Assembly: GCF_963676685.1 (NCBI RefSeq) | Contig: NC_092355.1 | Span: forward strand, 44,826,001 to 44,890,000 | Length of the DNA stretch: 64,000 nucleotides | Direction of reading: 5' to 3' | DNA from: Mytilus edulis | Taxonomy: Eukaryota | Shown here: in pieces, positions 661 through 56,771 of the stretch | Numbering within the stretch: position 1 is the stretch's first letter | Layout of the letters: each line of letters starts with the position of its first letter | The notes under the pieces: generated by a model | The model's input: only the letters and a program-made list of their open reading frames with translations | The model's database searches: none | Told to the model about the DNA's origin: nothing | Position numbers and translations under genes: made by a program

Positions 661-857
661 TTATCCTGGTATCTATCTTTGATGAGTTTATTAGGCATCC
701 GTTCGAGCTATCCGTTAACGTGTGACCGAGGCTTTATACATTTCTAAGTTAGCCGTAGAATCAATAAAAAGAAAACAGACAAAAGAACAGAGAGAACAAT
801 TGAAATGTGTCATGCTTACAGAATGAAAAACGTTTTAATTATTTCTGTATTATACAG

Positions 858-980
858 CTGGTGAAATAACAGCTACAGAAGATCTAACCTTACATAAAGT
901 AAGCCCATATAAAATTTATGTGGTAGTAAAGGACGAACAGCGAACAACTGGACCAAAAACACTGACCGTAGAGCTAACAG
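858..980 (+). CDS. Cadherin gene 1 exon
   Basis: tacag|...|gtaaaa, phase 1-1; GEITATEDLTLHKVSPYKIYVVVKDEQRTTGPKTLTVELT. Confidence 0.85.
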
Positions 981-3900
981 GTAAAATTAAAAATGATTAA
1001 AATATATGTTCTGAAAAGCGAGTCGTTTTGTACAAAAGTTGCTATTTTTAATTCGTAATTACACAAAATCATGCTTTTAAAAAACAATCTCTGACGTCTT
1101 TAATCTAAATCTATTGAATGTGTACTGATTGATGTTTTAGTCTGGAAGAACGTTATTAATGACTTTGAGCTAGCTTTCAGTAACTTCGAGTGCTCTGAGA
1201 TTGGTAATATGTATATTTTGTTTCCTACGTGTTTTTTTTTTGTGATTCTTACCAAATATTTGATTTCAAGTTCCGACAGATTTTTACAGTTTGTTCTTAT
1301 GTTTTGCGGTAACACCAATCAACTACTATACACAAATGTGATAAAGTGACTTCAAACTCATACAAGGAAAATGAGTCCTCACGATGTCGTATGACAGGAA
1401 ACAAAACTATACGACAATGAATTATTTTTGAATTACAAATAGATATAAGAATACTAATATAACACCGATTTTGTATATGCAGGTACTGATACAAATTGTT
1501 AACAAATGATTCCTCTTGAAAAAGATATACATTTTGTACCTTGTTCCATGAATGCTTTTCATCATTGTTGACGAACATACGTAAAAGAATCATAATATTA
1601 CAGTCAAATTCAGTTGCTTTATTACTTTTCCCCTTTGTAAAATGCAAATCAAATAGTGATACTTATAAAATGTAAAGCATTTGTTAATATTTATCTCACA
1701 GTTCAAAGAAATAAGAAATGTTGTATAGCATGCACAGAACAATACTTGTGCTGTAATGAATAAAATGTTTGCAATTATTTTAAAGATATCAATGATAGAC
1801 CAGAAATTAATAACCTTGGTGTGACGTCACTTACACAGCCAATCGACGAAAATATAGATGGTGACACCACAATAGGTCGACAGGTTTACGATATCGATAT
1901 CACTGACGACAACATTGGTGATACCCACACATTTTCTGCTACAACGAATCCGAATGGTTGCTCCGACTTGTACAGCCTCGATCCAACAAGTAAGTTTGTG
2001 TTGTTTGTATCATATGTAATTTGCTTTTCTTTAAAGAGAATCGTCGATTGATAATATAAAGCTTTTCTGTCAAAGTTTTGATAACGTGGTTTGCAGTGGT
2101 TAAAACGTGAAACAAAGTCAGTAAGCCATAACGGAAATAAACAGTCGTTTAAAAATAGAAGCCAAAGATACCCAGTTGATACTCAAACTCATAAGTCGAA
2201 AACAAACTGACAAATGAATGCCATCGCAAATAAAAGAAAGGAAATAAAAATAAAGACAAACAATAGTATGAAAAACGCAACAAAGAAAACTAAAGAATGA
2301 GCAACACGAACGCCTTTTAATTTCGAGGTGATTTTAAAATATGTCGCATTAACATGTATTAATTTCAGAAAAATTAGCTTGATTTGATCTCAGAAACATT
2401 TGTAATCATATAAATAATAGTCTTAACAGTATTACTCCTTCGTGTGTAAGTCTACTTTGCCTGATGGAGTATGTAATTCATCTAAGTAGCACACACACAT
2501 ACACACATCCAAAGAAGTTTTGCAATTCTTCTAAATCCATATAATCAAATGAAAATTCCTTATTGTGTAAAATTGAGATTGTCAGGCGACTTCAATTTTA
2601 TGTGGTTTTTCGAGATGAGCGATGAACTAAACAAAGTATCACCAACCACTTTTTTTCAAAAACGCGTATGTAAAGGACGCTTGATCGAATTGCGGCTTTC
2701 GGGTAATATCGGGCTTCCGGGAAATATCCTGCTTTCGGGAAATATTGCAATTAATAATCTACCTGATGGTCTTTCTACTTCTTGTTTAACAAATAAAATT
2801 ACGTTTGAAAATTTTATAATAAGCAATACATAACTTATTTTTAAAGCTGGTGTTGTGTCTACGACAGCCATATTAAATTATGAAGAACTTAAAACAAGTA
2901 GTCCTCAACGTCATATCTGCGATTTAATTGTTACGGTGGATGACGGAAGGGAAACATCAATACAAAAGAAATTAAGGATAGAGGTTACTGATGTCAATGA
3001 GCAACAAACTGGTTTTGAAAAAGATTTATACACTATCACTGGAACAGAAGGAACTGTGAGTTACTCCTGAGGGTACTTCTAAAATTTATAGGAAAAAGAG
3101 GTTTAAACTCCTCCACATGTTAAGGTGGTCGCCATGTCAGTATCCCCGTTGGTGACTAGGTTGTTTGTTTATAAAACTAATTTGATGTTGGGTAAAATTT
3201 TTTAGTAGTTTGTTTTTGTTATATTAATTGGCATCTAAGTGAATTAAGCACGACATACAGTATAGTCACTTGGATATGCTGAAATGCAGTGGAAACTGTT
3301 CACTCAAAATCTTTATTTAATTTTCATTTAACAGTGTTATGACGCATTTCTATAATTTTCAATGAAAAGCGTAAACGGTTTTGAATATCAAACTATTTAA
3401 TATGTTCTTTCTGCAAGTGTGCATATTATGATGAATTTCATTTTCGTCAGTCAGTAACTAACAAGATCATAAATGTTTTCTTGAAAGTATCCGAGGTTTT
3501 GAATTGTATGTTTTGTATGTATGGTGTACTGTTTGTCTTCCTTTCATTCGAATGGTCTTTGATTATGGACTTACCGTTTTGAATTAACTTCGGCGTTCTG
3601 TATTTTGTGATTTTACTTTTTTTCAAAATCCTACATGTTTTTTTTTTATTAGAAAGGAACTGTTCTACCGGCTGCTGGATTTGTGGTCAACGACGTGGAT
3701 ATTAATGATGTACAGACTTACACTATGGACTGTAAAGACAAACAAAGTTATTTTGACATGGATCCAACTACAGGAAGAATAACACAGCTACAAGAATATG
3801 ATTTAGATCCGAATAATTGGCAATTCAATACCCCGAAGTGTGATGTTACAGCCACAGACAAAGCCGGTCATACAGTTACAACAAAACTTAATATAAGGAT

Positions 3901-6900
3901 CGAAGAAATTAACGACAATCCCCCGAAACTAAATCAAAGAACATATTACAAAAATGTACCACAAAATACACCTGTAGGATCCCAACTTTTGTCGTGTACA
4001 TCAACAGACGATGACGTCAAAACAGAACATACACAACGCTCATATTCTTTGGGTGATTCAAATTTTGCCGTGGACAATAGCTGTAATATTCGATCAGCTA
4101 CAGATTTCAGCGGATATCCAGTGGGCACAACATTCACTTTCCCACTTACTGCCACTGATTCAGATGACACATCATTAAATGACGAGGCAACTGTCACTAT
4201 TGTCATAATTGATCCGACGACTACTACCGTCACAACTACAGTTGCTAATACCATAACCAATGCAAACAACAATAATGGTAATACAGGAACCGGAACTGGA
4301 ACCGGAACCGGAACTAGTAATACCGGAAACAGTGGATCACCTGCTGCTTTCTTAAGTCGTCCTACAGACCTTGCATGGTTTATTCCTGCCATGATAGCTC
4401 TTGCAGTCATGACTGCATTGTTGGGTTATATGATATACCGGTGTTGCCGGGTTCCTGGGTTCTGCGCACGACTGTTCTCTGATACGTGTGGTTGCTTGTG
4501 AGTAAAATTTTATTTGCATATAATAAGCATTTCATTATGATGCAATGGGATGTGATACAAATGATAATATAACAAATTTTTAACGAATCAACTTCATTAT
4601 AAAGAAAAGCGCTTCTGTAAATATTGTCTCCGCAGTCTTGTTCTGACATGAAATGTCATTTATTAGGAAATTGTCTGTACTTTGTTTTGTTCATTTGACA
4701 TTGAGATCATTCGAAACAATATGGGTTTTCGACTTAAAAGCATAGAAGACCATCGCCGGTATGGAATTGATTTCTTTATTTTCAATGGTTTTAACGGAAA
4801 TCGATTCGCATTTCAACTATTTGAACTCTACGGATACCCATTCCAACATACAGTGGTGTACCTCACACTTGTTTGACAGTCGCATAGAATGGCATTGTAT
4901 TGAAAACACTATGTGAGCAGAACAAGTAAACATAAGACAAGAAAAAAAAAGACCATAGCACAATAGCACTCTGGCGATATGTTAAAATATCCAGCCACGC
5001 CAAATAGATACTTCCATTCATGGACAGTAATGGTAAAAAATGTACAAAGACAAATAGAAAGATCAATATGACACGTCATTAAGATGATACACAACGTCAT
5101 TACCCGGAATCTTAAATTCAAGACCATCATGTATATTATCTCATAGATTTAGACTGGTTTATGTTTTATTATTTTTCAGCAATGATAGGGATTGCTGTGG
5201 TAAGAGAGGTAGAGGTAAAATAACCAGTAAGTTTCTTTCGTTAAATTTTCATAAATAGCTATAAACTGTTTGAAAATAGCGTTATTAAAGGAAATAGCAA
5301 GTCCAACTGTCGCTGTCGTTATCGTGTATCAAATTATATTTTTAACTAAAACGTGTAAATATTTTCGTATCTTTAAAGAAAACAACTTTGTACATCTAAT
5401 TCCGTGTTCAGGCTTTTGATAATCTTATTGGTATGGTAGGTAGACTTGAATTTGTTTTTATTCTGTCTTCTTGTTTAACGATATATGGTCTAGATATGCA
5501 CAAAATTTGCGGACACAAAACTAGTTTAATTCCTTCACGTTTTGTGATTGTCCGAGGCTGCACCATGTGTTTTTTTTAATTGTTTATCTAAATGCATTGA
5601 TGTCGGTTTGTTGGTTTGATCTCTTAGGATAGGACTGGTGATTCCCTTTGTCCTTATTATTTACCTCAGTAATATTGAGTTTACTAAAATAAATGTGGCA
5701 GAAATGTCGTTGCTAGCTTTTTTTTTGGTCATGAAGTACGACATTTGCAATATTTTACGAAACAACCTTTATATATACAAATATGATTGTTTAGTACTCA
5801 GTGGCAACTGATTATGTTTATGCAAAATATAGAACCACTGAAATATGAAGCATTTAAGCAAGCAAAATCAAAGACAACCCGTCACTTGCTGCAAAGGTTG
5901 ATTGACGGGATGACTTCCATTTCTACATAAGAAGTTGCATTACTAAACCCTTTCCAACCATTCATGACTGCTTATCTCTAGCGCTGTGGTTGTCGTGTTG
6001 AAGCGTGTTTGTCGTCGGTATAAGACCAAAGAGTTCACAGGTTAATCCTAATGTCACTCCTAAACTACGAAGGAAAAATAAGATACATATGATTAACAAA
6101 AAACCTAAATCGTTGAAAATGTAATTGAAAGGAAACAGATAGGGACTTATCTACAAACACTATACAGAACTCTAAATAATAAGAAAGTGTCATGCGTATA
6201 TATGTTTGTAATTTTCAATTTTTATTCAACAATAGTAATTATCAATTACCTACGTATGTTATAGAATCAGGTATAATTCAGTTATTCCTTTTTTAGATCC
6301 AAAGGCAGCTAAGAAAAACAATGCCGTGAGCGGTAAGTATTTGCTTTGGAAGTTAATTTGAAGTTCCCCGTGGGTTATTTCCTCTCGAAAATTTGCTTTT
6401 CTTCAATGGTTGTCGAGGTCAATTAATAAAAAAGGCAAATGAACCAAATGTTCACAAGCATGATGGTCTTTTTTCATCTAACGTAATAAAACTTTTTCTT
6501 TTCACATTTACTTATTCAAACGCTTTCTGAATACTTAATACGGTAATACATATACTAGATTTATACACATGCATCGAGTTCTTTCTTTTGAGAACATTAT
6601 ATTGGTATTTCCAACAGGTACACCCTTCGACAAACAATACAACCAGTGATATATTGACGAGTTGTGTTTAGTATTTACATTGAAGAAAATGTTAGACTGA
6701 TCAAAACATACGTTTACGATGTGAATTTCGTACAATAAATGTATCAAATGTGAACAGTCATTCCAGGGGCTGACATATTGGATCAATCCAAAATATGTAC
6801 CAGCATTTTATATGATACGACACCCACCAATACTTCATATTAATCTAGTTTTTTCACCTTAGATAAATCTGAACCACGCAGTAAAGAAAAACCACAGAAA

Positions 6901-9540
6901 CCAAGAAAGAGTAAGTTACCAGAATTTCGTGCAAGGTGAAACGTATATTTTTCAATGTTAATTACAAAGGCAAGGTGAATATGTGTTAAACACATATGTG
7001 GATCTCTTCTTTTTGTATTTAAACAAGAAATTTGAAATATGTATATGTTTTTTTTCTACGTCTAACCATTAAAATAGTGTATATCTCTTATGAATATATG
7101 ACGGTGACTGGTAAGAAGGTAATTTATTAAAAAGTTATTCAAAACCTGGTTTGCCGGATATGATTACCCTTCTTTGAACTTGTAATCGTTTATAATTCCG
7201 TGCGTCAAACGCTCGCTTCGTCTACATGAGTTTTGGTGGAACTCGATTAAAAATAGATGGAAGGTCAAAACATTGAAGAAGTTGAAGAACATTAAAAACC
7301 AAAATTTCAAGATGTTGTGTTCTTACAGGAACAACACGACGGGTACCACTTGTGGGGCAGCATATGCTTATCGTTCTGGAGCACCTGCGATCACCCTGAT
7401 TTTTGGTGGGAGTGATGTTGTCAGTCTTTAGTTTTCTATGTTGTTTTATTATGGCCCCTCAACGAAGTTGTAAGTGCCACATAGTTTTATCCTTGTCCGT
7501 CATTCCGTCATTCCATAATTACGTCATTCCGCAACAAACCACTATACGGAGTTTTTTCTAAATGCCTTCAAATATTAGGCTGATTTTTGGTATGTGAGTT
7601 AACCACGATTAGTTACAGATCAAGTTTAAGTTTTGTTCTGCTCCTCTAATTTTTACCGAAATTATGGGCTTTGAACTTTGATAAATTGTTGAAAAACAAA
7701 GTTATACAGACTTTTTTTCTAAACGCATTTAGATATTTGGTATGTCAGTTACCATTGATGAGTTTAAGATCACGTTTAAGTTTTGTTCCGCTCGGATAAT
7801 TTTTGCTGTAATTTCGGGCTTTGGACTTTTTGAAAATCACAATTATACGCATATCTTTCTAAATGCTTTCAGATATTGGGCTGAATTTTAGTATGTGAGC
7901 TAATCATGATGAGTTACAGATCAAGTTTAAGTTCTGTTTCGCTCCGCTAATTTTTGCTAAAATTAAGGGTTTACAATTTTGCAAATTGTTGAACATCACA
8001 GTTCTACGGACTTTTTTTCTATACGCCTCCAGATTTTGAGACTACCATCGTGTTTGTGTCCACATGTGTTATTGAAATTGCATATTTTTCAATTTTTTGA
8101 GACGGGGCAATTCGTGTCGCTTTGACACATCTAGTGTGTACTATTATTTATGTGTTATGTCTTTTCATTTTAAGCAATGGTGTTGTCAGTTAATTTTCGA
8201 TTTATGAGTTTGACTGTTCCTCTGGTATCTTTCGCAACTCTTTTAATCTACATTTTCTATGTTGTGTTTTGTGTAGTGTTTGTTTGTCGTTTTTTGTTGT
8301 TGCAATTATAACGTTGTCAGACTATTTTCGACGAATGAGTTTGAATGTCCCTCTAGTATCTTTCGCTTCTAAGAATGGAACTCCCTAATAATTTGGAAAA
8401 GTTCTCAATGTTTGTGGAAATTAATTTGAATAATACTTTATGTTTGTTAGCTTCTGTTCGTTTACGTCTTTCCGCATGTACATAACAATTAAAGAACAAT
8501 ACATAATGCAATTGTGGTGGGTATGTAACTAATGCATAACTTTTATTATTTCTGCCTTTAACTTATTGCACGAAAGGTACCGATTTATTATCAATCTCTC
8601 TCAACTCTATATTTGATAAATCTTTAGACAACTTGGGTTCCAAATAATCTCTTCTATGTCAGGATTAAAATTAAGTACGCCAGACGCGCGTTTTGTCCAA
8701 TAATTTATTTTATCTTAAGTGAAAATATTAAATGTGTTCTATGTTTTAATATTTTTTATGTAAATTTTCAGTTCGTGATCCCGAAAGTAATGACGGGAAT
8801 AGTGAATGGAATATATGGTCACATTCTGACTTTTCTGCCAAGTAAGTACACTGAACTTATCTTTTCCGAATTTTTACTTGAACAATAAGATGATTGTATA
8901 ATAACTTGTCCAAAATTTCAAATAAAGAAATATATTCAACGCGTGACCTCACAACACATTAACATAGCCCTCTGCAAACCGTATTTGGTCATATTTCTGC
9001 AGAAAAAAATAGATTGTTTGTCTGTTCCTTTAGTATCTTTCGTCTCTCTGTGCATATTAGCGTGAATTGAAGTTGGTATGCATAATGTACTGTTTGGATA
9101 ATAACCTCACCTTAGCCATTATTATTTTTAAATTTTGATTAATTCAGTAATGAGAAATAATAAAGCAGGAATACATGGACTTTTGCTTCTGTTTCAATGA
9201 GATCTAACAGGTCTTATACGCTTTACCGCTTAACAGTGTTTGCGAGAAGTAATTTGCAGGTTTTAGCAGACATATGTAAGCGGTACAAGCTCTTTATAGC
9301 AATACTGTTTTAAATGAAAAGTCTTAGAATATCTCTTGAATTCTTATAAGATATTCATTGGTTTCTCAATTAACAAACAAAAAAGAAGAAGAATTTACCA
9401 AACAAAATTTATAACTTTATATGTACATACATATCACTTTTTAACATGCATTTACAGATACCCAATTTACTCTTTAAGTTTCTGATGTAAAATATTGATT
9501 TCGGAAAATGTCTTTATATTGCAGGACCGATTGTCGTTAA
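858..9540 (+). CDS. Non-classical cadherin / protocadherin-like single-pass membrane protein, 3' part (5' exons upstream of window)
   Basis: Phase-consistent GT-AG exons 858-980, 1786-1989, 2847-3055, 3653-4497, 5180-5226, 6297-6332, 6863-6910, 8772-8841, 9525-9540(TAA). Cadherin Ca-binding motifs DINDRP, LNYE, DVNE, DVD, EINDNPP, DDD; T/N/G-rich stalk; TM WFIPAMIALAVMTALLGYMIY; ~91-aa tail; AATAAA near 9775. Confidence 0.9.
1786..1989 (+). CDS. Cadherin gene 1 exon
   Basis: taaag|...|gtaagt, phase 1-1; DINDRPEI...YDIDITDDNIGD...YSLDPT. Confidence 0.9.
2847..3055 (+). CDS. Cadherin gene 1 exon
   Basis: taaag|...|gtgagt, phase 1-0; TGVVSTTAILNYEE...VTVDDG...VTDVNE. Confidence 0.9.
3653..4497 (+). 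CDS. Cadherin gene 1 large exon (last EC repeats, stalk, TM)
   Basis: polyT-tag|...|gtgagt, phase 0-2; matches ORF 3683-4501; EINDNPP, TM helix. Confidence 0.93.
5180..5226 (+). CDS. Cadherin gene 1 cytoplasmic micro-exon
   Basis: ttttcag|...|gtaagt, phase 2-1; FNDRDCCGKRGRGKIT. Confidence 0.75.
6297..6332 (+). CDS. Cadherin gene 1 cytoplasmic micro-exon (36 nt)
   Basis: ttttag|...|gtaagt, phase 1-1; NPKAAKKNNAVS. Confidence 0.7.
6863..6910 (+). CDS. Cadherin gene 1 cytoplasmic micro-exon (48 nt)
   Basis: ccttag|...|gtaagt, phase 1-1; DKSEPRSKEKPQKPRK. Confidence 0.7.
7446..8135 (+). mobile_element. HINE/pearl-like non-autonomous Helentron
   Basis: Starts in a T-run; CGAAGTT head, TCCGTCAT microsatellite, ~150-bp core x3 (7611, 7761, 7912), 3' hairpin GTGTC..GACAC and CATCTAGT end. 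Confidence 0.7.
8772..8841 (+). CDS. Cadherin gene 1 cytoplasmic exon
   Basis: ttttcag|...|gtaagt, phase 1-2; IRDPESNDGNSEWNIWSHSDFSA. Confidence 0.72.
9525..9540 (+). CDS. Cadherin gene 1 terminal coding exon
   Basis: ttgcag|G ACC GAT TGT CGT TAA = (K)TDCR*; followed by a U-rich 3'UTR and AATAAA at ~9775. Confidence 0.55.
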
Positions 9541-10286
9541 TTTGGAACAACATCTGATATATTGTGTATTATATCACTGGATAGTGGACTGTTAAATATA
9601 TTTCAAGCAAATGTTATACAACTAAATTTTAATGTTTCCGCCTTGTGATAAAAAGTGCTTTCAAAATGTATGTTCTTTTTTGTTTTTGTTTTCTGGCGTG
9701 ATTGTTGACGTTGTATATTGAATGTATTTGTTTTTATATTATTTTTTTATTATTATTTTTAACGCTTCACATTAAATAAAAAAAAATGTGTTCTATTTCA
9801 ATTTATCTGATTCAGAACTTGTACACTTTGTTAATAGAAATTTTGTTATCTTTGTTATCATTGTATTAACACAGTGTAGTTTAGAACATGTTTCCAATAG
9901 ACCTCTATGAAATCTGGATAAGCATATACTAATATAGTAATGACAGAATCTTAAATTCTGCAATCATGTATTATTCATGTGCAGACACTAAAATTTTTAA
10001 TAAAACATCTAAAAAAATCATCATTTTTATTTACCTGTCCTGTCCTCTAGATACTCTTTGAAAGATCTTTTAAATGTACCACATGCAGGAAAAGATGTTT
10101 TTAACAATTTTGATATCATTATACTTAAGCAAAAGTAATTACTATGATTTTGAAAGAAAGTGATGAAGCTTTTTCCACAGAAGTATGTTGTAGACACGAA
10201 ATCTGTATTTAACTGATATAATCATCACTGAAGGTCTGCCACTCTTGATATCATTTGATACTTTTTCGTGACAAATAAAATACAAG

Positions 10287-10632
10287 GGATACCAGGCTAA
10301 TAATTAAAGTTAGAGAGCCAAACAAGTACAAAGTTGAAGAGCATTGAAGACCCAAAATTCAAAAAAGTTGTGCCAATTACGGCTAAGGTAATAAAATTAA
10401 CGGTACCAATTTTCTTGGACCAGATGCTATGCCTAAGCTATGCCTAAGCTATGCCTGGGATAAGAAACTCCTTAGTACTTCGAATATTTTTCACTTTTGC
10501 AAACAAAAAATTCATCAACATTACCATATCATTATTATTCATTAACACCGAAGTGCTGACTACTGGGCTGGCAATACCCTCGGGATCGAAACGTCCAACA
10601 CCAGTGTCATCTACCCTAAATAGTTATCAAGG
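10287..10632 (-). mobile_element. Copy of the same hammerhead-associated repeat family (partial)
   Basis: gttgaagagcattgaagacccaaaattc...tacggctaaggt...tgcctggga...caccgaagtgctgactactggg; collinear with 48152-48432. Confidence 0.55.
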
Positions 10633-11339
10633 GGCGAAAGATAACAGAGGGACCGTTAAACTAATAAATCGAAAATAAACTGACAACGCCATGGCTATAA
10701 ATGAAAAAGACAAACAGACGAACAAAAGTACACATGACACAACAAGAAAATTAAAGAATAAGCAACACGAACCCCACCAAAAACTGGGTTGATCTCATGT
10801 GCTCCGGAATGGTAAGCAGATCCTGCTCCACATGTGGTTCCCGTCGTGTTGCTCAGGTTATAACGAAGGGGGTATGTGGTGGATATGTGTTCCAGACACC
10901 ATTTGCATATGTGTCTTTATAATTTAAACAAAGTACAATACAACAGAGAGTGTTTATAAATCGAGAAGAACAGTTCTGATGGAATTGTTACACGATATCT
11001 TTTAAAATCAATGCTTCGAATAACTGGTATTTTTAATAAGGCAGTAAAACAACTTTCTTATGGACTTTTTTATAATTTGGAATGTAGTATGACGTCCATT
11101 ATCACTGAACTAGTGTGCATTCTTGTAAAGGGGCCAGCTGAAGGACGCCTCCGGGTGCGGGAGTTTCTCAATGCATTGAAGACCCCATGGTGGCCTTCGG
11201 CTGTTGTCTGTCCTATGGCCGGGTTGTTGTCTCTTGAACACATTCCCCATTTCCATTCTCAATCTTATTTTGATAATTTTTTGGTTTATAAAGTTATAAC
11301 GTTATATCTCATTTTGTGATTGAAAATTGTCACAGTTTT

Positions 11340-11510
11340 CACTTGGGGTTCTTTTATGAATGTTGGTCCTCTATGCTCTTCACCTTCGTTCTTTATTTGG
11401 CCTTTTTTAACGTTTAAGGATTCGAGAGTCACTGATGAGTCTTTTGTAGACGAAACGCGCGTCTGGCGTATATATAAAATTTAGTCCTGGTATCTATGAT
11501 GAGTTTATAT
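11340..11510 (+). mobile_element. Retrozyme/Penelope-type repeat fragment carrying the hammerhead
   Basis: Homologous to opposite-strand copies at ~7140-7320, 8660-8700, 10287-10632 and 48152-48432. Confidence 0.6.
11426..11469 (+). ncRNA. Minimal type I hammerhead ribozyme motif
   Basis: GAGTCA-CTGATGA-GTCT(tttgt)AGAC-GAAA-C(GCGC)G-TC^-TGGCGT: intact CUGAUGA/GAAA/UH core, 4-bp stem II, short stem III with palindromic loop, stem I with one mismatch. Confidence 0.8.
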
Positions 11511-11731
11511 TCAATAACATAGAAATGACTGGATACATTGATATTGTTCCGACGTTGAGAATAGTTCTCGTAGGTATTAAACATTTAATAGGTGTATAAA
11601 ATTTGCAATGAGTAACAATGTTTTCGACGGTCATATCCTTAACCTTTTTATAACTAAAATCTAACAGGTATCATAAAATATTAAAATGCAACAATGGTCT
11701 TTAAAAAGATATCAAGATATCAATATGGCAA

Positions 11732-11969: not shown

Positions 11970-12717
11970 AAATTATAATAAATAAACAAACAGATGGAAA
12001 AAACAAATATTGAGGATCATGAACGCAACCAATAAACTGGCATTAAATCAGGTAATTCAGAAGGGTAAACAGTAATAGCTCTATAATGACATAACATATC
12101 CTCATTAAAATATACGACTGGGGGTTTCAAACAATACAATACCAGTCATACCTTTAGTAATGTTAACACACTCGTGAAAGGGGCTAACAGAAACTACGAA
12201 CATAATGATAAAGCATAACTTCATTAAATGATGCTTAGAATTCAGTGGGTGTGGTGTTCGGAAAGAACTTCTACAAAAGGTACAAAATATATGTCGATAT
12301 CTAATTGTGAGTTAACATTTTTGGACTGTTGACGTAATGTAGCTGGATATTACTGGTGGATGTACAATTTTCATTTGTCACAGTTCTGGAGTAATACTTA
12401 TCAAAACCATTGCAATTACTTACATTGGATGCGCACGACTTCAAATTCCGTTCTAAACGAATCCCATTTCGTCCTCATTGATTTGTTCGACATAAACAGA
12501 TTCTTTTGTATGACAATTTCGCAAAAAGTACAATAACAAAAATACTGAACTCCCGAGGAAAATTAAAAACGGAAAGTCCCTAAAGAAATGATAAAACACA
12601 TCAAAAGAAACGCATCAAACATTAAGCAAACGTTTGAAGATAACCCTAGTAGGATTCCAAAAAAAAGAAATACAAAAATAGAGATAATGGTGTTGATTTC
12701 CTTCATTTCAATGGATA

Positions 12718-13753
12718 ATTAAATATGGTGTAAAACAAATGGATGGTTAAATATGGTGTAAAACAAATGGATGGTTAAATATGGTGTAAAACAAATGGAT
12801 GGTTAAATATGGTGTAAAACAAATGGATGGTTAAATATGGTGTAAAACAAATGGATGGTTAAATATGGTGTAAAACAAATGGATGGTTAAATATGGTGCA
12901 AAACAAATGGATGGTTAAATATGGTGTAAAACAAATGGATGGTTAAATATGGTGCAAAACAAATGGATGGTTAAATATGGTGTAAAACAAATGGATGGTT
13001 AAATATGGTGTAAAACAAATGGATGGTTAAATATGGTGTAAAACAAATGGATGGTTAAATATGGGGTAAAACAAATGGATGGTTAAATATGGTGCAAAAC
13101 AAATGGATGGTTAAATATGGTGTAAAACAAATGGATGGTTAAATATGGTGCAAAACAAATGGATGGTTAAATATGGTGTAAAACAAATGGATGGTTAAAT
13201 ATGGTGTAAAACAAATGGATGGTTAAATATGGTGCAAAAACAAATGGATGGTTAAATATGGTGTAAAACAAATGGATGGTTAAATATGGTGCAAAACAAA
13301 TGGATGGTTAAATATGGTGTAAAACAAATGGATGGTTAAATATGGTGTAAAACAAATGGATGGTTAAATATGGTGTAAAACAAATGGATGGTTAAATATG
13401 GTGTAAAACAAATGGATGGTTAAATATGGTGTAAAACAAATGGATGGTTATGGTTAAATATGGTGCAAAACAAATGGATGGTTAAATATGGTGTAAAACA
13501 AATGGATGGTTAAATATGGTGTAAAACAAATGGATGGTTAAATATGGTGTAAAACAAATGGATGGTTAAATATGGTGTAAAACAAATGGATGGTTAAATA
13601 TGGTGTAAAACAAATGGATGGTTAAATATGGTGTAAAACAAATGGATGGTTAAATATGGTGCAAAACAAATGGATGGTTAAATATGGTGTAAAACAAATG
13701 GATGGTTAAATATGGGGTAAAACAAATGGATGGTTAAATATTATGTAAAACAA
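12718..13753. repeat. 28-bp minisatellite, ~36 copies
   Basis: Unit TAAATATGGTGTAAAACAAATGGATGGT with GTA/GCA and GGGGT variants; no spacers. Confidence 0.97.
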
Positions 13754-13927
13754 ATAACACAAGATACATACGACATTTGCTTCCGTAGTGTCCGTTAATG
13801 CAATTACAGGAAAAGGACGATCTTGTATATGTGCAAGAACCACCATTGTTACATGGATTTTGTAGAACAGGGAGTGTCTGAAAGAATTGATAATACTATT
13901 TATATTCAGTTAAAATATATTTGGTAG

Positions 13928-20272: not shown

Positions 20273-22675
20273 AAACCCTAGGAAAAAAACTACTCACCAT
20301 TAAAGACAGCCGTATTGATGTAAACAAAATGAACACTTAAATTTAAAATAGAAATCAACTACCACGTGATTGTTATTTTCAAAGAACTCTGTTCACGAAT
20401 GTGGCTATTCGTCGATAACAGCCGGCGTTGCATACCCATTCTATACATTTGAGAAAATATGTGTTTGACTTTTCAAAAAATCATGTTTGATATACTCTAT
20501 TCAAATATGCAAGAAAAAACATTCCATCAGTTGCGACTTTTCGAGATATAAGTTTAAAATAAGCTTTCGTGTAAAAAAGGAAAATTCTTTACCGACAGAA
20601 AAACATTCAAACAGAATGCTATATTTTCATATTAAATATCATAATACCTACAAATAATGTAGTAACATAAAATATAATGTTATGAAATCGTGTGGTTTTA
20701 CACTTATTATCGGTATAAACTGCATTACATAAACGATTTCAAAGAGCAACGTGAACATATACGGGATGCGGGAAGACACAATACTTTACGATGATCATGT
20801 CAAAAAACGATACAGAAACACATAAGAAACGATTTATGATTTCGTGAGCATTATAACTTAAATAATTAATTTTAATAAAAAAAAATAAAAGTCTCTGAAT
20901 AACAACATTATAATAAACACAGCCTACCTTTACAATATTTACACTGCTCTTCGTTACCTTCACCTAAAATAATTCAAATCCTGTTGATTTTATGACGTAA
21001 TCGCGCCAAAAATCATTGATCCAATAACACTATTTCGCGGAATATTTACATTTTGGGAATTCATACATGTAGGCCATTCCGGATGCGGTAATTTCTTCGA
21101 CTGCATTGAAGACCTATTGGTGACCTTCTGCTCCTGTCTTTTCTATGGTCGGGTTGTTGTCTCTTTGACACATTCCCCATTTCCATTCTCAATTTCATTG
21201 AAATGTATAATATCATATTTTCCAGAAAGAAGAAATTAAACATTTAAAATTTTAAACTATGCAGATTTTACCATCTTAAATTTGTAGAAGAGTTTTTTGA
21301 AAGCATCACAGTATTGAGACAGATTTATGACAAATTATAATTTGCAAAAATAATAAATAACGCAAATTTTCAAGGAATAAAACCACTATTTCATAACACG
21401 CTAGCGTTCTATGTTAAATTATATACAAGTTCGAGCATTCATAACTTTTTTTGACTTACGTTTAAATAAAGTGGTAGTAATTTTATCTCAAAACTATACA
21501 GACTTGTACTAAAAAGTATCATATCTTAAATTGTCATAGCACACGGGTTTCCGAAAATTGGGTAGTACAAAAACTTCTGATCTGAGCAACAGGGCACATA
21601 AAAGTCATATGCCCTCCGTCTTAATTTAATAGTTCTGTATTTATTTGCAAAAGAAACTGTAATCAAAGGTTCTGGTTATAAAAAATAAACAGAAACCGAC
21701 CGTGAGAGCGATTTTCAGCCAGTCAAGGGGTTTAAAAAAACAATATTACAGTCACTTCTCATAATTAAATTCTTAATTCCATAAATCATGAATAAACGTT
21801 GATAATGTCACCGTCACATGACAAAATGATGTCCAGTGGCGTAGCTAGGTGTTTGTTACGTGTACGCCCGAACCTCGGCGAGGGGTCCGAGTGCCCAAGT
21901 CATAGTACCTGTTGGTAGTTGGTTCAACGTGGCGAAGCCCCCGTAAGCTAACAGGTTATCAAGAATGAGATATCGTTCCCGTTATTGAAAATTCTTATCA
22001 GTAGCAAAATACTTAAAAAATTTAAATGGTTTATTTTAATGTTTAGTTTATTCATCGTGTTGATTTGGAATTTAATGGTCATTGGATATAGAGAAAAGTA
22101 TAAAACAGTTTCTTAAAAATAATGTTCAAAAGGAGCCATGGGGTAATTGTCGTTAAAGAACATAAAATAATTAATGTTCGGAAGGTTTTTTTTCAATTTA
22201 CGTTCAAAGATTCTGATTCGCATTTTTCTTTTTTGTACTTTTTTTTGTACTTTTGTTCCTTTTTAAATTTTTTTTTTTAGATCAAGCTCATCTGGTCTAC
22301 TGTTAACATATTTTGCGACATCTGTTAATGAACGAAATGTCTTTGCATGGACTAACGAATTAAAGCATTAATTAGAAAGCGAATCGTGAAATACAGAATA
22401 GGACTTCGTGATCAATTTTACAAAACTGACCAACAGCAATACAATTATACGTCAATTTTCATTAATTAAAAATAGCCATACTTACTTAAATTCGAAGTTG
22501 TTGATTGTAAAGTATCTGATATTGATTCACAAAGTTAAAGCAACAGGTGTCACCTATATTGTATTTAATGACATGCAATCAGTGCGAGGGTCTTAACCGT
22601 TTTGTACACATATGTTCATCATGGTAATATCGTCGTAAAAAATCGTTTACCTAGTAAACTATGACTTTTAAACTA

Positions 22676-24369: not shown

Positions 24370-24911
24370 TAATAGTATTTTGTTATGTTTTGTTGCAGAC
24401 CGTAACAATGTTAGCTCAGTCTTGTGATTGTTTGTCATCTGTAAAACCTACATATCCTTTCATTCGTAATTTTACTATTACATGTATCTAAAATGAACGT
24501 AAATACTGGTAGAAAAAGACGCTGTGTGAATATTTGAAGCATCAAAACTTGAACTATAAATAACAACCCCAAATTCAAAATAAACATATTGCTTTACACG
24601 ATGATAATTTTTTTGAAATTAATTTCCTATAATAATGAGGCAGATCAGTTTAAGACCAGACTCGAATTAGGTGTCTTTCTCCTCCCAGACATATACAATC
24701 TTTAGTCCTATTTAGCACAACAATTTCGAGATAATGTTTTGCAATGTTCTTCAAGTTGGTTTTGACTTTCAAACTATTTTGTATTCGAGCGACAGTTTTC
24801 AGTTTTTCCTTAGGGGATAGATAACAGTCTTTAAAATATCGACCTTTGGTAGGAACACTAACAATACTAGACGAATTATAAGTGCAGTGCGGGAGTCGAC
24901 TTCTTAAAACA

Positions 24912-25348
24912 ATAAAATTGAGAATGGAAATGGGGAATGTGCCAAAGAGACAACAACCCGATCATAGAAAAAAGCAACAGCAGAAGGTCACCAACAGGTC
25001 TTCAATGTAGCGAGAAATTACCGCACCCGGAGGCGTCCTTCAGCTGGCCCCTAAACAAATATATACTAGTTCAGTGATAATGAACGCCATACTAATTTCC
25101 AAATTGTACACAAGAAACTAAAATTAAAATAATACAAGACTAACAAAGGCCAGAGGCTCCTGACTTGGGACAGGCGCAAAAATGCGGCGGGGTTAAACAT
25201 GTTTGTGAGATCTCAACCCTCCCCCTATACATCTAGCCAATGTAGAAAAGTAAACGCATAACAATACGCACATTAAAATTCAGTTCAAGAGAAGTCCGAG
25301 TCTGATGTCAGAAGATGTAACCAAAGAAAATAAACAAAATGACAATAC
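24912..25348 (+). repeat. Abundant Mytilus-type interspersed repeat
   Basis: aaaattgagaatggaaatggggaatgtg...; partial reverse copies at 11066-11266 and 21086-21197. Confidence 0.75.
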
Positions 25349-32800: not shown

Positions 32801-35800
32801 GATAAGGGCCATTCAAAAAAAAAAATTATGTCGTAATTACGACATAGCATGTCGTAATTTCGACATAACATGTCGTTATTACGACATCGCTATGTCGTAA
32901 TTTCGACTCAACATGTCGTTATAACGACATCGCTATGTCGTAATTTCGACATAACATGTCGTTATTACGACATCGCTATGTCGTAATTTCGACATAACAT
33001 GTCGTTATAACGACATCGCTATGTCGTAATTTCGACATATCATGTCGTAATAACGACATCACTATGTCGTTAAAACGACATAGCTATCGCTATATATAAA
33101 AGAATATGTATTATGATTGCCAAGAGACTAAATGACACAGAAATTAACAACTATAGGTCATCATAATGCCCCCAATAATTAGAAAAGCCCTACATAGTCA
33201 GCTATACAAGAGGGAGGAAAGATACCAGAGGAAGAGCCCCCGAAATGCTGTGTGGCAGACAGTGTTATAATTAATTATTAGCTCCCTTGGTAAAACTCCA
33301 AATTTTATATTTAATGTATTTCATTGTTAAATAATTTACATGAAGCTTAATAAGTACATATTTGTGAATTGCATAGACTTTGCTATTTGAATCCATTGGT
33401 TAAAGATATTCATTTATATTGTAAAGTTTAATATTTGCATCGTCGCAAAATCTTTGGTTACCTTCTTTGAATAGATTCAGTGAGAAACTTATATATTTTA
33501 TAGATCCCATGTAACAATACCGACCCGACCGTGTATGTTAGGTCAAACAATCATTCCTACCAAAGCAAGTCAAGCTGTTCATCTCCCTACAAATAAGTGC
33601 AAACTTCAAGGCTTTTTGCGAAAAGTTTGAATTGAAGTCTTGATTGCTCTATTTCTAATTTCAAACGTTGGGCACGATGTTCCTACAACGCCTAGGATTT
33701 AAAACAGAATCTTCGAAATTTCATTCGCAAAACAAAATAAAAATAAAAATGTTAGAAAACACGAAACAATATTGTAACAAATTCAGTATATGTTTTAAAT
33801 TATGTTTTTACAGCTCTTGATCATATACTAAGTAATATCTAGTTTATTTGAGGATTAAAATAAGACAGCTATTTAAAAAAAAGAATGTCCAACGTTACAT
33901 TTAAGAAAAACTGTTTTAACTCTTATGTATAGTGATCCCATTTCTTATTCTCTGATCTTCTTGATTCTTGGCAGGAACAACGACATGTGTTGGTTCTCTG
34001 TGCCGTTAAAGCCGTTATTTTGCCAAATTTCATTTGACTCGGTGGCTGCATATTAAGCTGGAATAAAAAAAATGTCCAACGACGTTTTTCATTAACTCAA
34101 CATCTGAAAGTGAATTTTATAAGTAGATATAGCAGAAAATGAATTAAAAGAGTAAGACAATAATAATATCTAACAAAAGTACAAATATTTGCCTCATGTG
34201 AGTTCAAATATTGCTGATTCAATAAAATCTTCTCTACACAGTCGTTTTTCAAACGGTAGCCATTTTGTCCAAGTTGATATTTCATTTTTCAAATCAGTTA
34301 ACGCGTATTTTTTATAATTGAAAAGAACAAAAGTTAGATACACGAAGAGTAAAAATGCCAAGATTCTTTTCTTATTACCTACATATTTAGGTCTTAAAGG
34401 AATAAAATGCTTCCACACATTACAAAACGGTAGCCAATTTGTCCAAACGTCTGAAAACGCCTAAAATCCTAAAGACGCTAATTTCCGACGTTACATGTGC
34501 TAAAGTTTCAATTAAATGTTCAGGATAATTAAAACAAATCATGTTATGAAATTTGGAAAAAGAGGTTGATGATTGCTGCCGAAAAAAAAGAATAATGCAT
34601 GTTGCTATAGACTCCGCCCGGGAACATAGGTTCGACACAGGTTAAATTTTGCAATTTTTATTAATCGTTTATAGCTTTTAACGATTTATTTAAAAGAATT
34701 GGGAAATGGGGAAAACATTCCATTACATGAACTTCGTCCAACTTTTGCAAAGACAAATTGGAGACACCAAGACAGTCTCTAAATGTAAAATGCGAATTGA
34801 AATTTATGTTACGGAAGTTCTCCGAAATAGATCATTTAAAGTCGTCACTTCAGTAAGGTGCAATCACCAATATTAAAAGACTTAATACCAGTTCACGGAA
34901 TGTTTTACTTCGCGATTTGTCCTGCTATTCATGTTATAACAGTCGTGATGAAAGTAATTCCTGTACTAGCGAAGCCGGAACTTTTCGTCAATATAAACTT
35001 GTGCATGAAATGGAGGTAATTGAAAGACGAATCCCAAACAGCAACGAAAACCGTTTCATCGAATTGATAAAAACCCGGGATTATATTTGCCGTTTTCGCG
35101 GACGATCCAGGAGTAGATTACTATATTTTAGAATGTATATCAGAAGTTAAACGCTATATATGACTTGAGAAATGATTCTCAAGCCAAGGTTCAAGTAATT
35201 GAAGGAGTGTATTTCGACAACTTATTTGCTAGGGAAAATACAAATTTAACCAAGGGTAAAAATGTTCGATTTACTTGCAGAGTGTCAGATATATTTGTAT
35301 TGATTGAATTAAGATATAGAAATTTTACAATGGCAGATGATATGCACCTTGAAAGTTAAACATCCTATGATAAAACAAAAATATGGAAAACCGTATACAT
35401 GTACTTCCGTCCCATCTTTCCTTCCTACATTACTTGCGACAGTACTGCATTTTTAGTTTCCACAACTCGAGGTAATGTTTTATAAAATGACATCACAAAA
35501 CGAACAGAACCAGAATCAACCAACAATATAAAAAAACCGAATAAAACTTGCAAAAATTAGACGAAGTCACAAACCCTCTTCGACACCGCAATGTGAAAGT
35601 GTAACGTCGTGTTGTAGGAATGTCGTGCCCAACGTTTGAAAGTAGAAATAGAGCTATCAATACTTCAATTCACCCTTATTACAAGAAGCCATGTAGTTTG
35701 CGCAGATATAAAGGGAGATGGAATGATTGGCATGCAATGTCAGTCCTCATATATTTCCACGTCTTATTTGTCTATTTCAAAGTGGTCTGACTGAACAGCC

Positions 35801-48890: not shown

Positions 48891-49829
48891 CCATAATGTA
48901 TGGATTGATCATTCTACAAACTTTGTTAATTTGATTTACCATTTTAATCATATACATGATATAAAACAGAAAGCAGCCACTAATGTAATATGCAGTATAT
49001 GTGTATGCAAATATTTAGTAAATTTTTTTTATTCTATATTGTATTTACTTACAACGTAGCCTCATTCTCCTCATCTAATTAACTTGAAAGACAAAAACAA
49101 TAAATGGAACCAATTGTGAACCACAAAACATTGAAAATGAAGTCAAAGTCATTTGAACCATACCAGATAGTTACGTACACCTAACAATTGTTCAATAACT
49201 ATTAATCATTTAGAAATTGACCTTACCACGCACGTATAAAAACGTAACGTACAATGGCAGATCCATAATTATTTATAAGAGAGTCCCACTCCACTCATAC
49301 TTCTGTGATTACCTATCTAATCAACCATTTAAAAATCATCTCCTTGTATGCTATATCTCCAAGAGCTTTAATAGTCCGATGATTCTATTTATATACTATG
49401 TGTATATAACATAGACTGGCCGACAGATATGCATATTGATAATGTACACCTTCTTGAGTAATGCAATAGAAGGAGCTACAATTTATCACAAACTGTACAA
49501 TATCTTGCTTATTTAAGAAAGTACTAGTAGTTTTCAAATTTTTTGGTCCAATTATGTTTATTGCATAACTTTTCAGCTCTTGGAAGGCCACATTTCGTTG
49601 TTACAATAGAGCCGGACAAACTACCAAGATATGAATCTCGTCCTCATCAGTCAATTCACAGCATTTACAAGTTGGTGCTTACTTCCCCCCAGAATATTTA
49701 CAATTCAAACTTTGTAGGATATACCGTATGTTCCAGTAATCAGGCGTGCATTTAAAGCTCGTTTTCCGATTTGATTTTCCTCTGAGTTCAGTATTTTTAT
49801 GATTTTACTTTTTATATCCAAGATAGTTG

Positions 49830-54000: not shown

Positions 54001-54520
54001 GTTTTCTGTAATTGGTTTATATCAAGCTTTTTCAATGTTCTTGCAGTGATTATAAATGCATGTTGCTCCACTGTCTAATTGAAATCTTGTTAATATTCTT
54101 TTCTCATTTTTGCCTATTATCTTCATAAATGCATATATGTGCCTGCTGTGTTTTTCTTTAACAGAGTTACTGTGTTTATTTCAAAATAATCATTACTTTC
54201 GTCGGACACTTCAGGTATTTCTCGTAGTCTGTGTCCTGGGTGACGTCTTTACCTTGATTTTTGATTTACACATACTTTCAAAATGATTTGATTTCCAACA
54301 TTTCCTACAATCCTTCCCAAAAGCGGAACATTTAGCCTTGTTAAATTCATGTTTTCTTCCCCAATATTTACAAGTCGAGAATGTTTGTGCGTAAAATGGT
54401 TTAGTTTTATGTGTATATTGCTTTTGCTGTTGATAATTAGGATTTCGTTGTTTGTGTTTTAAACCATGCACTTCCAAGTCAGAAAAACATGGGTTTTCTA
54501 GTGTATTTACTTCTGTTTCG
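51020..54520 (-). mobile_element. Decayed Ty3/Gypsy LTR retrotransposon internal region (gag-pol)
   Basis: Gag zinc knuckle CRKCWKSNHFESMC, protease FQLDSGATC (~54060-54085), RT (LRICIDP, DAKNGFWH), RNase H (DASKTGLAAV-like, YAQIEKEL), integrase (TDNGPQF, SNRKVE); order PR-RT-RH-IN; many stops and frameshifts; LTRs not found. Confidence 0.93.
52910..53038 (+). repeat. Interspersed repeat fragment inserted in Gypsy pol
   Basis: Matches 56278-56400 (…gattatggactttcc…ttcagtatttttgtgattttacttttt); interrupts EKIR/MPK. Confidence 0.8.
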
Positions 54521-54769
54521 GACCTTTTTATACTAGGCGACGTCCGAGCTAGTATCCTGTTTGATCTCCGTAAATTCATGCTACTGGGCGGATGATGTCC
54601 TCGGGGACAAAATGTCCACAGGACAATAAAAATCTCCCAAGTTTATACTTGATATCTTAACTTTACATGTACAAAAACGAAGCAACAAAACGTTTGAGTA
54701 ATTTAAAACCTCTTTCAAAAGATCTGATCCCCACTGTCTCTTTCTTTATGTGTGTGACCAATTGAAACC

Positions 54770-55800: not shown

Positions 55801-56771
55801 GCCTTACTCCTACCTACTCCGTTTGCAGCAGATATGGTCAATCATAAAGCTGTTATTGCATATCATTTAGTTATGGCACATGTGTGTTACCAATTTAACT
55901 AATTAACCATTGCTTCAATGGGGGTAACAAAACAAGATGCATATATTCAGGTTCACATTTTGTGCCATGTCTACTCCTTCTACAGATATAGATGGCTTTT
56001 ACAATTATTGTGACAAGATACTTTAAACCAGCTGTGTGAATAAGATGTAGATTCCTTAAATTTCGAAAGGACTACTCTATATTTTACATCAACTATCTTT
56101 AAAATTTTACAGAAATATCAAAACCTCTAATCTTTAAATTATTCTGCATTATCAAGTGACGCATCATTGTAAATATAACGGAATTTGATGAGACTGTCAA
56201 CAAAGTGAGAGGGTTAGCGCTATAAAACCAGGCTTAATCCACCATTTTCTACATTTGAAAATGCCTGTACCAAGTCAGGAATTTGACAGTTCTTGTCCAT
56301 TCTTTTTTGATATGTTTTGTCGTTTGATTTTGCCATGTGATTATGGACTTTCCGATTGGATTTTCCTCTGAGTTCAGTATTTTTGTGATTTTACTTTTTG
56401 AAAGATCGACAACATCATCTCATTAAACTACAAAAAATAACCCAGAAAAGTAGATATAAAATTCCTGTCAAAGTTCCAAGGTTCGAAGAGCCAGAGATAT
56501 TCCCACAACAAATAAACTTATAATAAATCATCTTATTACATTGGTTGCAATGAATTACATTGATTTCCCAGTTAGATAAAAACCGATAATTTCACATGTG
56601 AAATAAACGTGGTTATTTCACTCTCTGACGTCATACAACAATAGGCGTTGTCAAGACGTCGATAACGTCGGATCAAAACAAATTGTCAATGCGTAGGAAA
56701 AAGATATAGTTCCTTACATTTTCTACATTAATTTCATAAAAAAAAAGCCATTTGCCAATGTAATAAAAAGA

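What the first reader, a model, noticed from the sequence alone, without database searches (positions are those of the whole stretch)
11426..11469. Intact minimal hammerhead ribozyme ~2 kb downstream of the cadherin gene, on the same strand
Seen: full catalytic core CUGAUGA (11432-38), stem II GUCU/AGAC, GAAA (11452-55), a tiny stem III with palindromic loop GCGC, GUC^ site (predicted cleavage after 11463), and stem I GAGUCA/UGGCGU with one mismatch. Knowledge: minimal type I hammerheads with a palindromic stem III occur in Penelope-like elements and animal retrozymes and are thought to cleave as dimers. Inference: this is the only copy here with an intact core, and it could cut read-through RNA from the cadherin locus.
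Basis: partly seen in the sequence, partly recalled or inferred. Interest (0 to 1): 0.7.

Follow-up and report, generated by a model that had tools for sequence, protein, structure and literature searches.

The report
Clipped retrozyme copy, Naiad-type insertion end
This is a real hammerhead (self-cutting RNA) motif, but it lies in one clipped copy among more than 15,000 of a repeat that is likely the known mussel retrozyme, and it probably does not control the neighbouring cadherin gene; the family's copies stop just before an RNA hairpin shared with Naiad jumping genes, which likely names the enzyme that spreads them.

Summary
The hammerhead at 11426-11469 is real (Rfam Hammerhead_1, 32.9 bits, gathering 34) and is the only intact core in the window. 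It is not special to the locus: the core occurs 15,388 times in the genome, about 0.7 per 64 kb. It sits in a 5'-truncated solo copy (11351-11508) of a 350-383-bp tandem repeat matching the described Mytilus non-LTR retrozyme. It is a canonical metazoan type I motif, not the Penelope min-HHR, and its stem I mismatch is a minority variant (2 of 74 copies). Cadherin RNA contigs from three studies stop at 9974-9988, about 1.4 kb upstream (weak hint against read-through). At family level, 50 of 56 terminal copies end 36-52 nt past the cut, just before a covarying hairpin that three Naiad (Penelope-like) families share; 28 of 30 Naiad-3 ends fall at the same place. Naiad reverse transcriptase therefore likely mobilises the retrozyme. 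This scan noted the Naiad link before on other DNA; I took that lead and retested it. I did not find it in the papers searched.

The parts
11426..11469 (+). Type I hammerhead ribozyme motif (canonical metazoan form: 6-bp stem I with one mismatch, 4-bp stem II, 2-bp stem III with palindromic tetraloop); predicted cut after 11463
   Evidence: covariation across subfamilies
11351..11508 (+). 5'-truncated solo retrozyme copy, subfamily A: 113 nt before the cut and 45 nt after it; no target-site duplication; ends 9 nt before the place where the hairpin would start
   Evidence: 92% identity to a tandem unit of L012; ends; loose ends pile up at 11508
11455..11462 (+). 8-nt palindrome (stem III and loop) able to pair with a second copy
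   Evidence: predicted homoduplex -14.7 kcal/mol
9525..10004 (+). Last exon of the cadherin-like gene (stop about 9538-9540; AATAAA at 9775 and 9999); context only
   Evidence: spliced RNA contig of X17 and contig ends at 9974-9988
10306..10633 (-). Older retrozyme fragment (closer to subfamily B) without the hammerhead, holding a decayed copy of the shared hairpin (about 10560-10616)
10630..10867 (-). 3' end of a Naiad family-3 element abutting the retrozyme fragment
   Evidence: 89% over 240 nt to L205
48152..48433 (-). Diverged retrozyme copy with a broken core, similar to the dead copy carried in the Naiad family-2 3' region
54509..54619 (-). Remnant of the Naiad family-3 hairpin and 5' region

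Best explanation
The motif is the hammerhead of a 5'-truncated solo copy of a very abundant tandem repeat, likely the mussel non-LTR retrozyme, that was likely inserted here by a Naiad reverse transcriptase and is probably a passenger with no role for the cadherin gene. Shown: the motif, the 350-383-bp tandem units, the copy number, the fixed 3' end, the variable 5' ends, the lack of target-site duplications, and a hairpin shared with three Naiad families whose own insertions stop at the same distance before it. From the literature: mussel retrozyme arrays are transcribed, self-cleave (kobs about 0.1 per min) and accumulate as circles. Inferred: the Naiad protein binds the hairpin, nicks AT-rich DNA and starts reverse transcription 5-10 nt 5' of the hairpin, about 45 nt downstream of the ribozyme cut; the template must be continuous across the cut site (a circle or an uncleaved multimer); early stops give short copies that nearly always include the whole hammerhead. 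This copy lacks the hairpin and a tandem partner, so it would be neither mobile nor able to make a circle, and it would cleave weakly if transcribed.
For: Copy number 7866+7522, reversed-pattern control 0. Fourteen distinct cut-to-cut units of 359-383 nt, GC 34-38%, a third subfamily of 350 nt; PMC7229834 reports two similar HHR families in 350-390-bp repeats in M. galloprovincialis. In 74 copies from L021-L090: 18 run on into a next unit, 50 of the 56 terminal ones end 36-52 nt past the cut, 1 of 56 at the cut; 61 of 74 are 5'-truncated at 36-336 nt; shared flank word of 8 nt or more in 1 of 43 solos against 1.9 in shuffled pairs; inverted neighbours in 5 loci. Hairpin: 65 of 77 and 62 of 78 letters shared between retrozyme B or A and Naiad-3; 103 of 104 cells paired, 5 of 13 pairs with double changes, 0 of 500 shuffles as high (9 hand-chosen sequences, related). 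Hairpin just upstream of the ORF in 21 of 30 Naiad-1 loci by pattern (2 of the 9 misses carry it with one change, 7 are truncated before it), in 6 of 6 Naiad-2 and 7 of 7 Naiad-3 loci, and in 0 of 44 loci of C-terminal-endonuclease PLEs. Naiad-3 ends: 28 of 30 stop 5-9 nt before the hairpin, 2 of 30 run on in tandem. Internal RT initiation at an AC-rich stem-loop with ends marking the start site is shown in vitro for another PLE (PMC11167929). Hammerhead pairs covary between subfamilies A/B and C (4 of 12 pairs, 93 of 96 cells paired).
Against: Sequence identity with the cloned M. galloprovincialis retrozymes could not be checked: the supplement was unreadable and the preprint text holds no sequence. 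No biochemical test links Naiad protein to the hairpin; it could also serve transcription or translation. Only 150 of 858 GIY-YIG candidates were scored and many control loci cover only part of an element, so another PLE family with the hairpin is not excluded. The 74 copies were selected for an intact core and all come from the first 7.2 Mb of C1, so copies ending before the cut are invisible. The number of covarying pairs in the hammerhead alone is not above shuffles (224 of 500). Ensemble folding does not single this copy out as misfolded: 41 of 72 other copies have stem I pairing as low or lower. A single cloned mussel repeat did cleave in vitro, so lack of a tandem partner does not make this copy silent.
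Confidence: 0.72

Rival explanations
1. One reading: the ribozyme cuts read-through RNA from the cadherin gene and so helps termination or regulation.
For: Same strand, 1.9 kb after the stop, intact core. The insertion's 5' junction is bridged in DNA runs X3 and X1, so it is not private to this assembly.
Against: 0.72 copies expected per window. Stem I is weakened here (-1.0 against -5.7 kcal/mol for the L012 copy). Raw RNA reads over the motif carry the family's C at 11427 (110 of 122 and 214 of 222), so they come from other copies.
Confidence: 0.05
2. Same retrozyme, but copied by a hammerhead-bearing Penelope/Neptune-type PLE; the hairpin shared with Naiads reflects ancestry or a promoter role, not the present helper.
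For: The genome holds intact C-terminal-endonuclease PLEs with min-HHRs. bioRxiv 10.64898/2026.07.22.740005 derives Xenopus retrozymes from pLTRs of such PLEs.
Against: No hairpin match in 44 such loci; their similarity to the retrozyme is limited to inserted copies; retrozyme and Naiad-3 ends lie at the same distance from the hairpin.
Confidence: 0.13
3. The motif is the remnant of the pseudo-LTR of an autonomous Penelope element (min-HHR).
For: Penelope-type insertion marks: no TSD, 5' truncation, inverted neighbours.
Against: Both flanks match a short non-coding tandem unit at 92%; the architecture is canonical, not min-HHR; no RT or GIY-YIG ORF near it.
Confidence: 0.04
4. A satellite unit spread by DNA-level processes (unequal crossing-over, extrachromosomal circles), with the ribozyme as a by-product.
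For: Tandem arrays exist.
Against: A fixed 3' end with scattered 5' ends in 50 of 56 copies is the polarity expected of reverse transcription; pairings are kept by double changes.
Confidence: 0.04

Closest known systems
Mytilus galloprovincialis non-LTR retrozyme (Cervera and de la Pena 2020, PMC7229834; read: part 2 of 6, sections 14 and 17, passages; supplement not readable)
   Same: Type I hammerhead in low-GC repeats of 350-390 bp, two similar main families, thousands of copies, PLE proposed as helper.
   Different: The paper counts about 5000 motifs in an older assembly (15,388 here), mentions TSDs when present (none above chance here), and in the text seen names neither a helper clade, a fixed 3' end nor a hairpin. 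This copy is a 158-bp solo fragment. Sequence identity to the clones not checked.
Naiad PLEs (Craig et al. 2021, PMC8557442; read: section 6 and passages)
   Same: 5' truncation, tandem and inverted copies, abundant 3' ends, presence in Mytilus; here also the hairpin and end position.
   Different: Naiads code for EN-RT and lack canonical hammerheads; the retrozyme is non-coding and has one. The passages seen mention non-autonomous partners only for Chlamys; the words hairpin and stem-loop do not occur in the main text.
PAc Poseidon of Anolis (Frangieh et al. 2024, PMC11167929; read: passages and second half of the main text)
   Same: Reverse transcription starts inside the RNA at an AC-rich stem-loop downstream of a hammerhead; genomic ends mark the start site; AT-rich targets.
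   Different: Autonomous element of another clade with two start sites; shown biochemically, whereas the mussel case is inferred from sequence.
Penelope min-HHR (Cervera and de la Pena 2014, PMC4209133; read: part 2 of 4 and passages)
   Same: Type I core, palindromic stem III region, dimer model.
   Different: min-HHRs have a longer helix II with a bulged 5' base and a short helix I; this motif has 4-bp helix II without bulge and 6-bp helix I.
Vertebrate non-LTR retrozymes as PLE derivatives (Li, Clavereau, Pollet, bioRxiv 10.64898/2026.07.22.740005; read: parts 1-3 of 5, supplements closed)
   Same: Retrozymes as non-autonomous users of PLE enzymes; solo monomers regarded as non-mobile offspring.
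   Different: No mollusc sampled (0 hits for Mytilus, mussel, bivalve); origin from hammerhead-bearing pLTRs, whereas the helper here appears to be hammerhead-free.

Membership tests
Type I hammerhead ribozyme (Rfam RF00163) | Conserved core CUGANGA, GAAA, NUH with three helices | tested here: met
   (32.9 bits, E 2.4e-4; 26 of 34 listed matches in the genome pass 34 bits)
Type I hammerhead ribozyme (Rfam RF00163) | Helices kept by compensatory changes | tested here: met
   4 of 12 pairs change on both sides between subfamilies; 8 hand-chosen related sequences, one event
Type I hammerhead ribozyme (Rfam RF00163) | Self-cleavage of this copy | not testable with these tools
   No pile-up of read ends in X24, but fragmented RNA-seq is not suited
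Penelope min-HHR | Long helix II with a bulged base between positions 9 and 10.1, short helix I | tested here: not met
   against definition; true min-HHRs seen in L091, L096, L101
Metazoan non-LTR retrozyme | Type I HHR in each unit of a 150-450-bp, low-GC tandem repeat, no ORF | tested here: met
   family level; this copy is a solo fragment
Metazoan non-LTR retrozyme | Dispersed high copy number | tested here: met
Metazoan non-LTR retrozyme | Expressed as circular RNA | tested here: inconclusive
   Family reads exist in RNA run X24; circles cannot be told from tandem transcripts with these data
Metazoan non-LTR retrozyme | Target-site duplication longer than 4 bp (optional in the paper) | tested here: not met
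   1 of 43 solos against 1.9 shuffled; none at this copy
Mytilus galloprovincialis retrozyme | Sequence identity to the cloned circles MN642551-MN642576 | not testable with these tools
   only unit length, family number and host type agree
Active retrozyme (two or more intact HHR units) | Tandem intact ribozymes | tested here: not met
   single core in 64 kb
Naiad (the proposed helper) | N-terminal GIY-YIG before RT, DKA motif, CxC motif | tested here: met
   ORFs of 1000-1053 aa, YIG at 147-191, DKA at 557-610; CxC read by eye in P0002 only; no tree built
Naiad (the proposed helper) | No canonical hammerhead | tested here: inconclusive
   no core within 600 nt of the stop; Naiad-2 carries a dead retrozyme hammerhead further down its 3' region
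Non-autonomous partner of Naiad | Shared cis signal and shared end position | tested here: met
Non-autonomous partner of Naiad | Mobilisation by Naiad protein | not testable with these tools
   needs in vitro priming or a cell assay

The most novel reading that the evidence does not exclude
Mussel retrozymes are ribozyme-equipped parasites of the hammerhead-free Naiad retrotransposons: their RNA circles carry the Naiad reverse-transcription start hairpin, are copied from a fixed point about 45 nt downstream of the ribozyme and across the ligation junction, and so leave an intact hammerhead at almost every insertion. The helper and its RNA signal would then be identified for an animal retrozyme, with the hammerhead and the RT signal coming from different sources.
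Probability: 0.62. Interest if true: 0.62.

Novelty: new variant of a known kind. Interest (0 to 1): 0.42.

Why it matters
The single copy is ordinary. The family-level link matters because the helper of animal retrozymes is only proposed in print (PMC7229834 discussion; the 2026 preprint calls the mechanism unresolved). A named helper clade, a 60-nt hairpin and a predicted start site turn this into one in vitro experiment, would extend internal RT initiation from Poseidon to Naiads, and explain why a genome carries over 15,000 intact hammerhead cores. Not found in print in searches of the held library; unread supplements of PMC7229834, PMC8557442 and the 2026 preprint could bear on this.

Tried and rejected
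MFE folding of the 44-, 66- and 131-nt stretches did not give the hammerhead and was no better than shuffles. A comparison with one L012 copy suggested that this copy is misfolded (stem I pairing 0 against 0.5-0.6), but against 72 copies it is unremarkable (41, 18 and 34 of 72 as low or lower in three context sizes), so I dropped that argument. No RNA cover over the unique flanks 11298-11374 and 11529-11730 in X15, X17, X19, X24: absence in contigs proves nothing, and X24 (about 6% of the run read) shows no cadherin reads at all, so it cannot test read-through. No empty-site allele among the joints shown (203 and 219 rows were not shown). No TSD. No autonomous PLE carrying this hammerhead in its terminal repeat among 30 GIY-YIG loci or 16 longer PLE loci; the hits in L099, L120, L155 are short inserted copies. 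The Rfam search of the genome scored only 74 candidates and the 30 fetched all belong to this family, so it gave no outside covariation. The miRNA hits are far below their gathering scores and lie on palindromic repeats. No earlier notes near this place.

Full report
Observation. Rfam Hammerhead_1 matches 11426-11469 over the full model at 32.9 bits (gathering 34, E 2.4e-4), and the 38-nt core has one match in the window and none in 100 shuffles. It is the only intact core on either strand. The architecture (6-bp stem I, 4-bp stem II without a bulge, 2-bp stem III with a palindromic tetraloop) is what PMC4209133 calls the canonical metazoan type I form, not the min-HHR of Penelope elements; real min-HHRs appear beside GIY-YIG ORFs elsewhere in this genome.

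What it sits in. A core pattern occurs 15,388 times in the 1.37-Gb genome, control 0, or 0.72 per 64 kb. Many copies lie in tandem units: 14 distinct units of 359-383 nt in two subfamilies and a third of 350 nt. The window copy is 92% identical to a subfamily A unit from 11351 to about 11508, that is 113 nt before and 45 nt after the predicted cut. The stem I mismatch is a minority state: 60 of 74 sampled copies have the pairing base, 2 of 74 have this 5' strand; the constrained fold is -1.0 against -5.7 kcal/mol. Between subfamilies A/B and C, 4 of 12 hammerhead pairs change on both sides and 93 of 96 cells pair, and the stem III palindrome is kept with other letters; these are 8 hand-chosen related rows and the count of covarying pairs alone is not above shuffles. 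Unit length, two main families and host type fit the M. galloprovincialis retrozyme of PMC7229834, which self-cleaves at about 0.1 per min and accumulates as circles. I could not compare sequences with its clones, so the name is an inference.

The cadherin idea. The gene is on +, with a weak Pfam cadherin match and a stop at about 9538-9540. RNA contigs from three studies cover the last exon and stop at 9984 (X15), 9988 (X17) and 9974 (X19), just short of AATAAA at 9999, while DNA contigs go on; the X17 contig is spliced to the previous exon. This is a weak hint that the mRNA ends about 1.4 kb before the ribozyme. Raw reads over the motif carry the family base at 11427 (110 of 122, 214 of 222) and show no pile-up of ends. 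Two other repeats and an antisense retrozyme fragment lie between gene and motif. The insertion's 5' junction is bridged in DNA runs X3 and X1. Nothing points to a regulatory role; nascent read-through was not testable.

How copies are made. In 74 distinct copies from 70 loci (L021-L090, the first listed matches on C1, selected for an intact core), 18 continue into a next unit; of the 56 terminal ones 50 end 36-52 nt past the cut, at a TATT(T) motif, and 1 ends at the cut (next to an inverted segment). 5' ends scatter from 36 to 336 nt in 61 truncated copies. A shared flank word of 8 nt or more occurs in 1 of 43 solos against 1.9 in shuffled pairs, and 5 loci have inverted neighbours. A cleaved linear monomer primed at its end would give ends at the cut, so the template is inferred to be a circle or an uncleaved multimer primed internally, as shown in vitro for a Poseidon element whose genomic ends mark RT start sites at an AC-rich stem-loop (PMC11167929). 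A strong hairpin begins 49-55 nt past the cut.

The helper. Earlier notes of this scan on other DNA proposed Naiads; I tested that. Among 16 PLE loci only L159, with an N-terminal GIY-YIG and DKA motif as defined in PMC8557442, shares the hairpin, just before its ATG. It is found in 21 of 30 loci of that family by pattern (2 misses have one change, 7 are truncated) and in 0 of 44 C-terminal-endonuclease PLE loci, many of them partial. Two further Naiad families carry it in 6 of 6 and 7 of 7 loci; family 3 shares 65 of 77 letters with retrozyme B, and nothing else of the unit. Across 9 aligned sequences 103 of 104 cells pair and 5 of 13 pairs change on both sides, 0 of 500 shuffles as high; relatedness limits this control. 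Of 30 Naiad-3 ends (8,279 pattern matches genome-wide) 28 stop 5-9 nt before the hairpin and 2 run on in tandem, the same distance as most retrozyme ends. Binding and priming by Naiad protein remain inferred.

This copy. It ends 9 nt before the hairpin position, has no partner unit and a weakened stem I, so it would not be mobile or circle-forming. Whether it can cleave is open: a single cloned mussel repeat cleaved in vitro, and ensemble folding does not mark this copy as worse than most.

Known or new. The element class and probably the family are described. PLEs as helpers are proposed in PMC7229834 and argued for vertebrates in a 2026 preprint without molluscs. The Naiad hairpin and fixed end were not found in searches; supplements unseen may hold them. 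Verdict: the given finding is ordinary as a locus; the family-level mechanism is a modest, directly testable addition. Interest 0.42.

Noticed in passing
L198, L200-L204 (3' region about 0.7-1.1 kb after the stop); window 47788-48442 (-): All six Naiad family-2 loci examined carry a decayed retrozyme segment (about 70% identity, broken hammerhead core) in their long 3' region, so an autonomous Naiad appears to have captured and spread a retrozyme copy; the window's dead copy at 48152-48433 resembles it.
   Followed up: partly
window 10306-10867 (-): A Naiad-3 3' end (10630-10867) runs directly into a retrozyme fragment that begins just before the shared hairpin; either a Naiad insertion at the retrozyme's AT-rich end site or a template switch.
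   Followed up: partly
L213, L214, L215; window 10388-10422 (-): A third retrozyme subfamily (350-nt period) with compensatory changes in all three hammerhead stems; its arrays also end just before the hairpin. A 35-nt piece lies in the window.
   Followed up: partly
window 11065-11269 (+), 21078-21199, 24911-25114: Another very common repeat with a fixed AT-rich 3' end and variable length, directly upstream of the finding; possibly the 3' end of a further PLE family.
   Followed up: no
window 56159-56399, 52913-53039, 49763-49814, 12523-12619, 3560-3622: 3' ends of Naiad family 1; the one at 3560-3622 lies just before the acceptor of the large cadherin exon.
   Followed up: no
window 848-9540 (+): Cadherin-like transmembrane gene with a Thr/Gly/Asn-rich linker and a short Cys- and Lys-rich cytoplasmic tail without an obvious classical catenin-binding domain (read by eye).
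   Followed up: no
window 51053-54642 (-): Broken ORFs with Integrase_H2C2 and weak RVT_1 matches, likely a decayed LTR retrotransposon.
   Followed up: no
window 46737-47174 (+): Cytochrome P450 exon.
   Followed up: no
window 12710-13755; 32828-33070; 36251-36447; 61184-61321: A homogeneous 28-bp satellite (37 copies, 96% matches), two arrays of a 43-bp self-complementary unit, and a near-perfect 138-bp inverted repeat; the last three cause the sub-threshold miRNA hits.
   Followed up: no
L091, L096, L101, L117: Distinct hammerhead variants downstream of C-terminal GIY-YIG PLE ORFs, three with the bulged base typical of min-HHRs.
   Followed up: no
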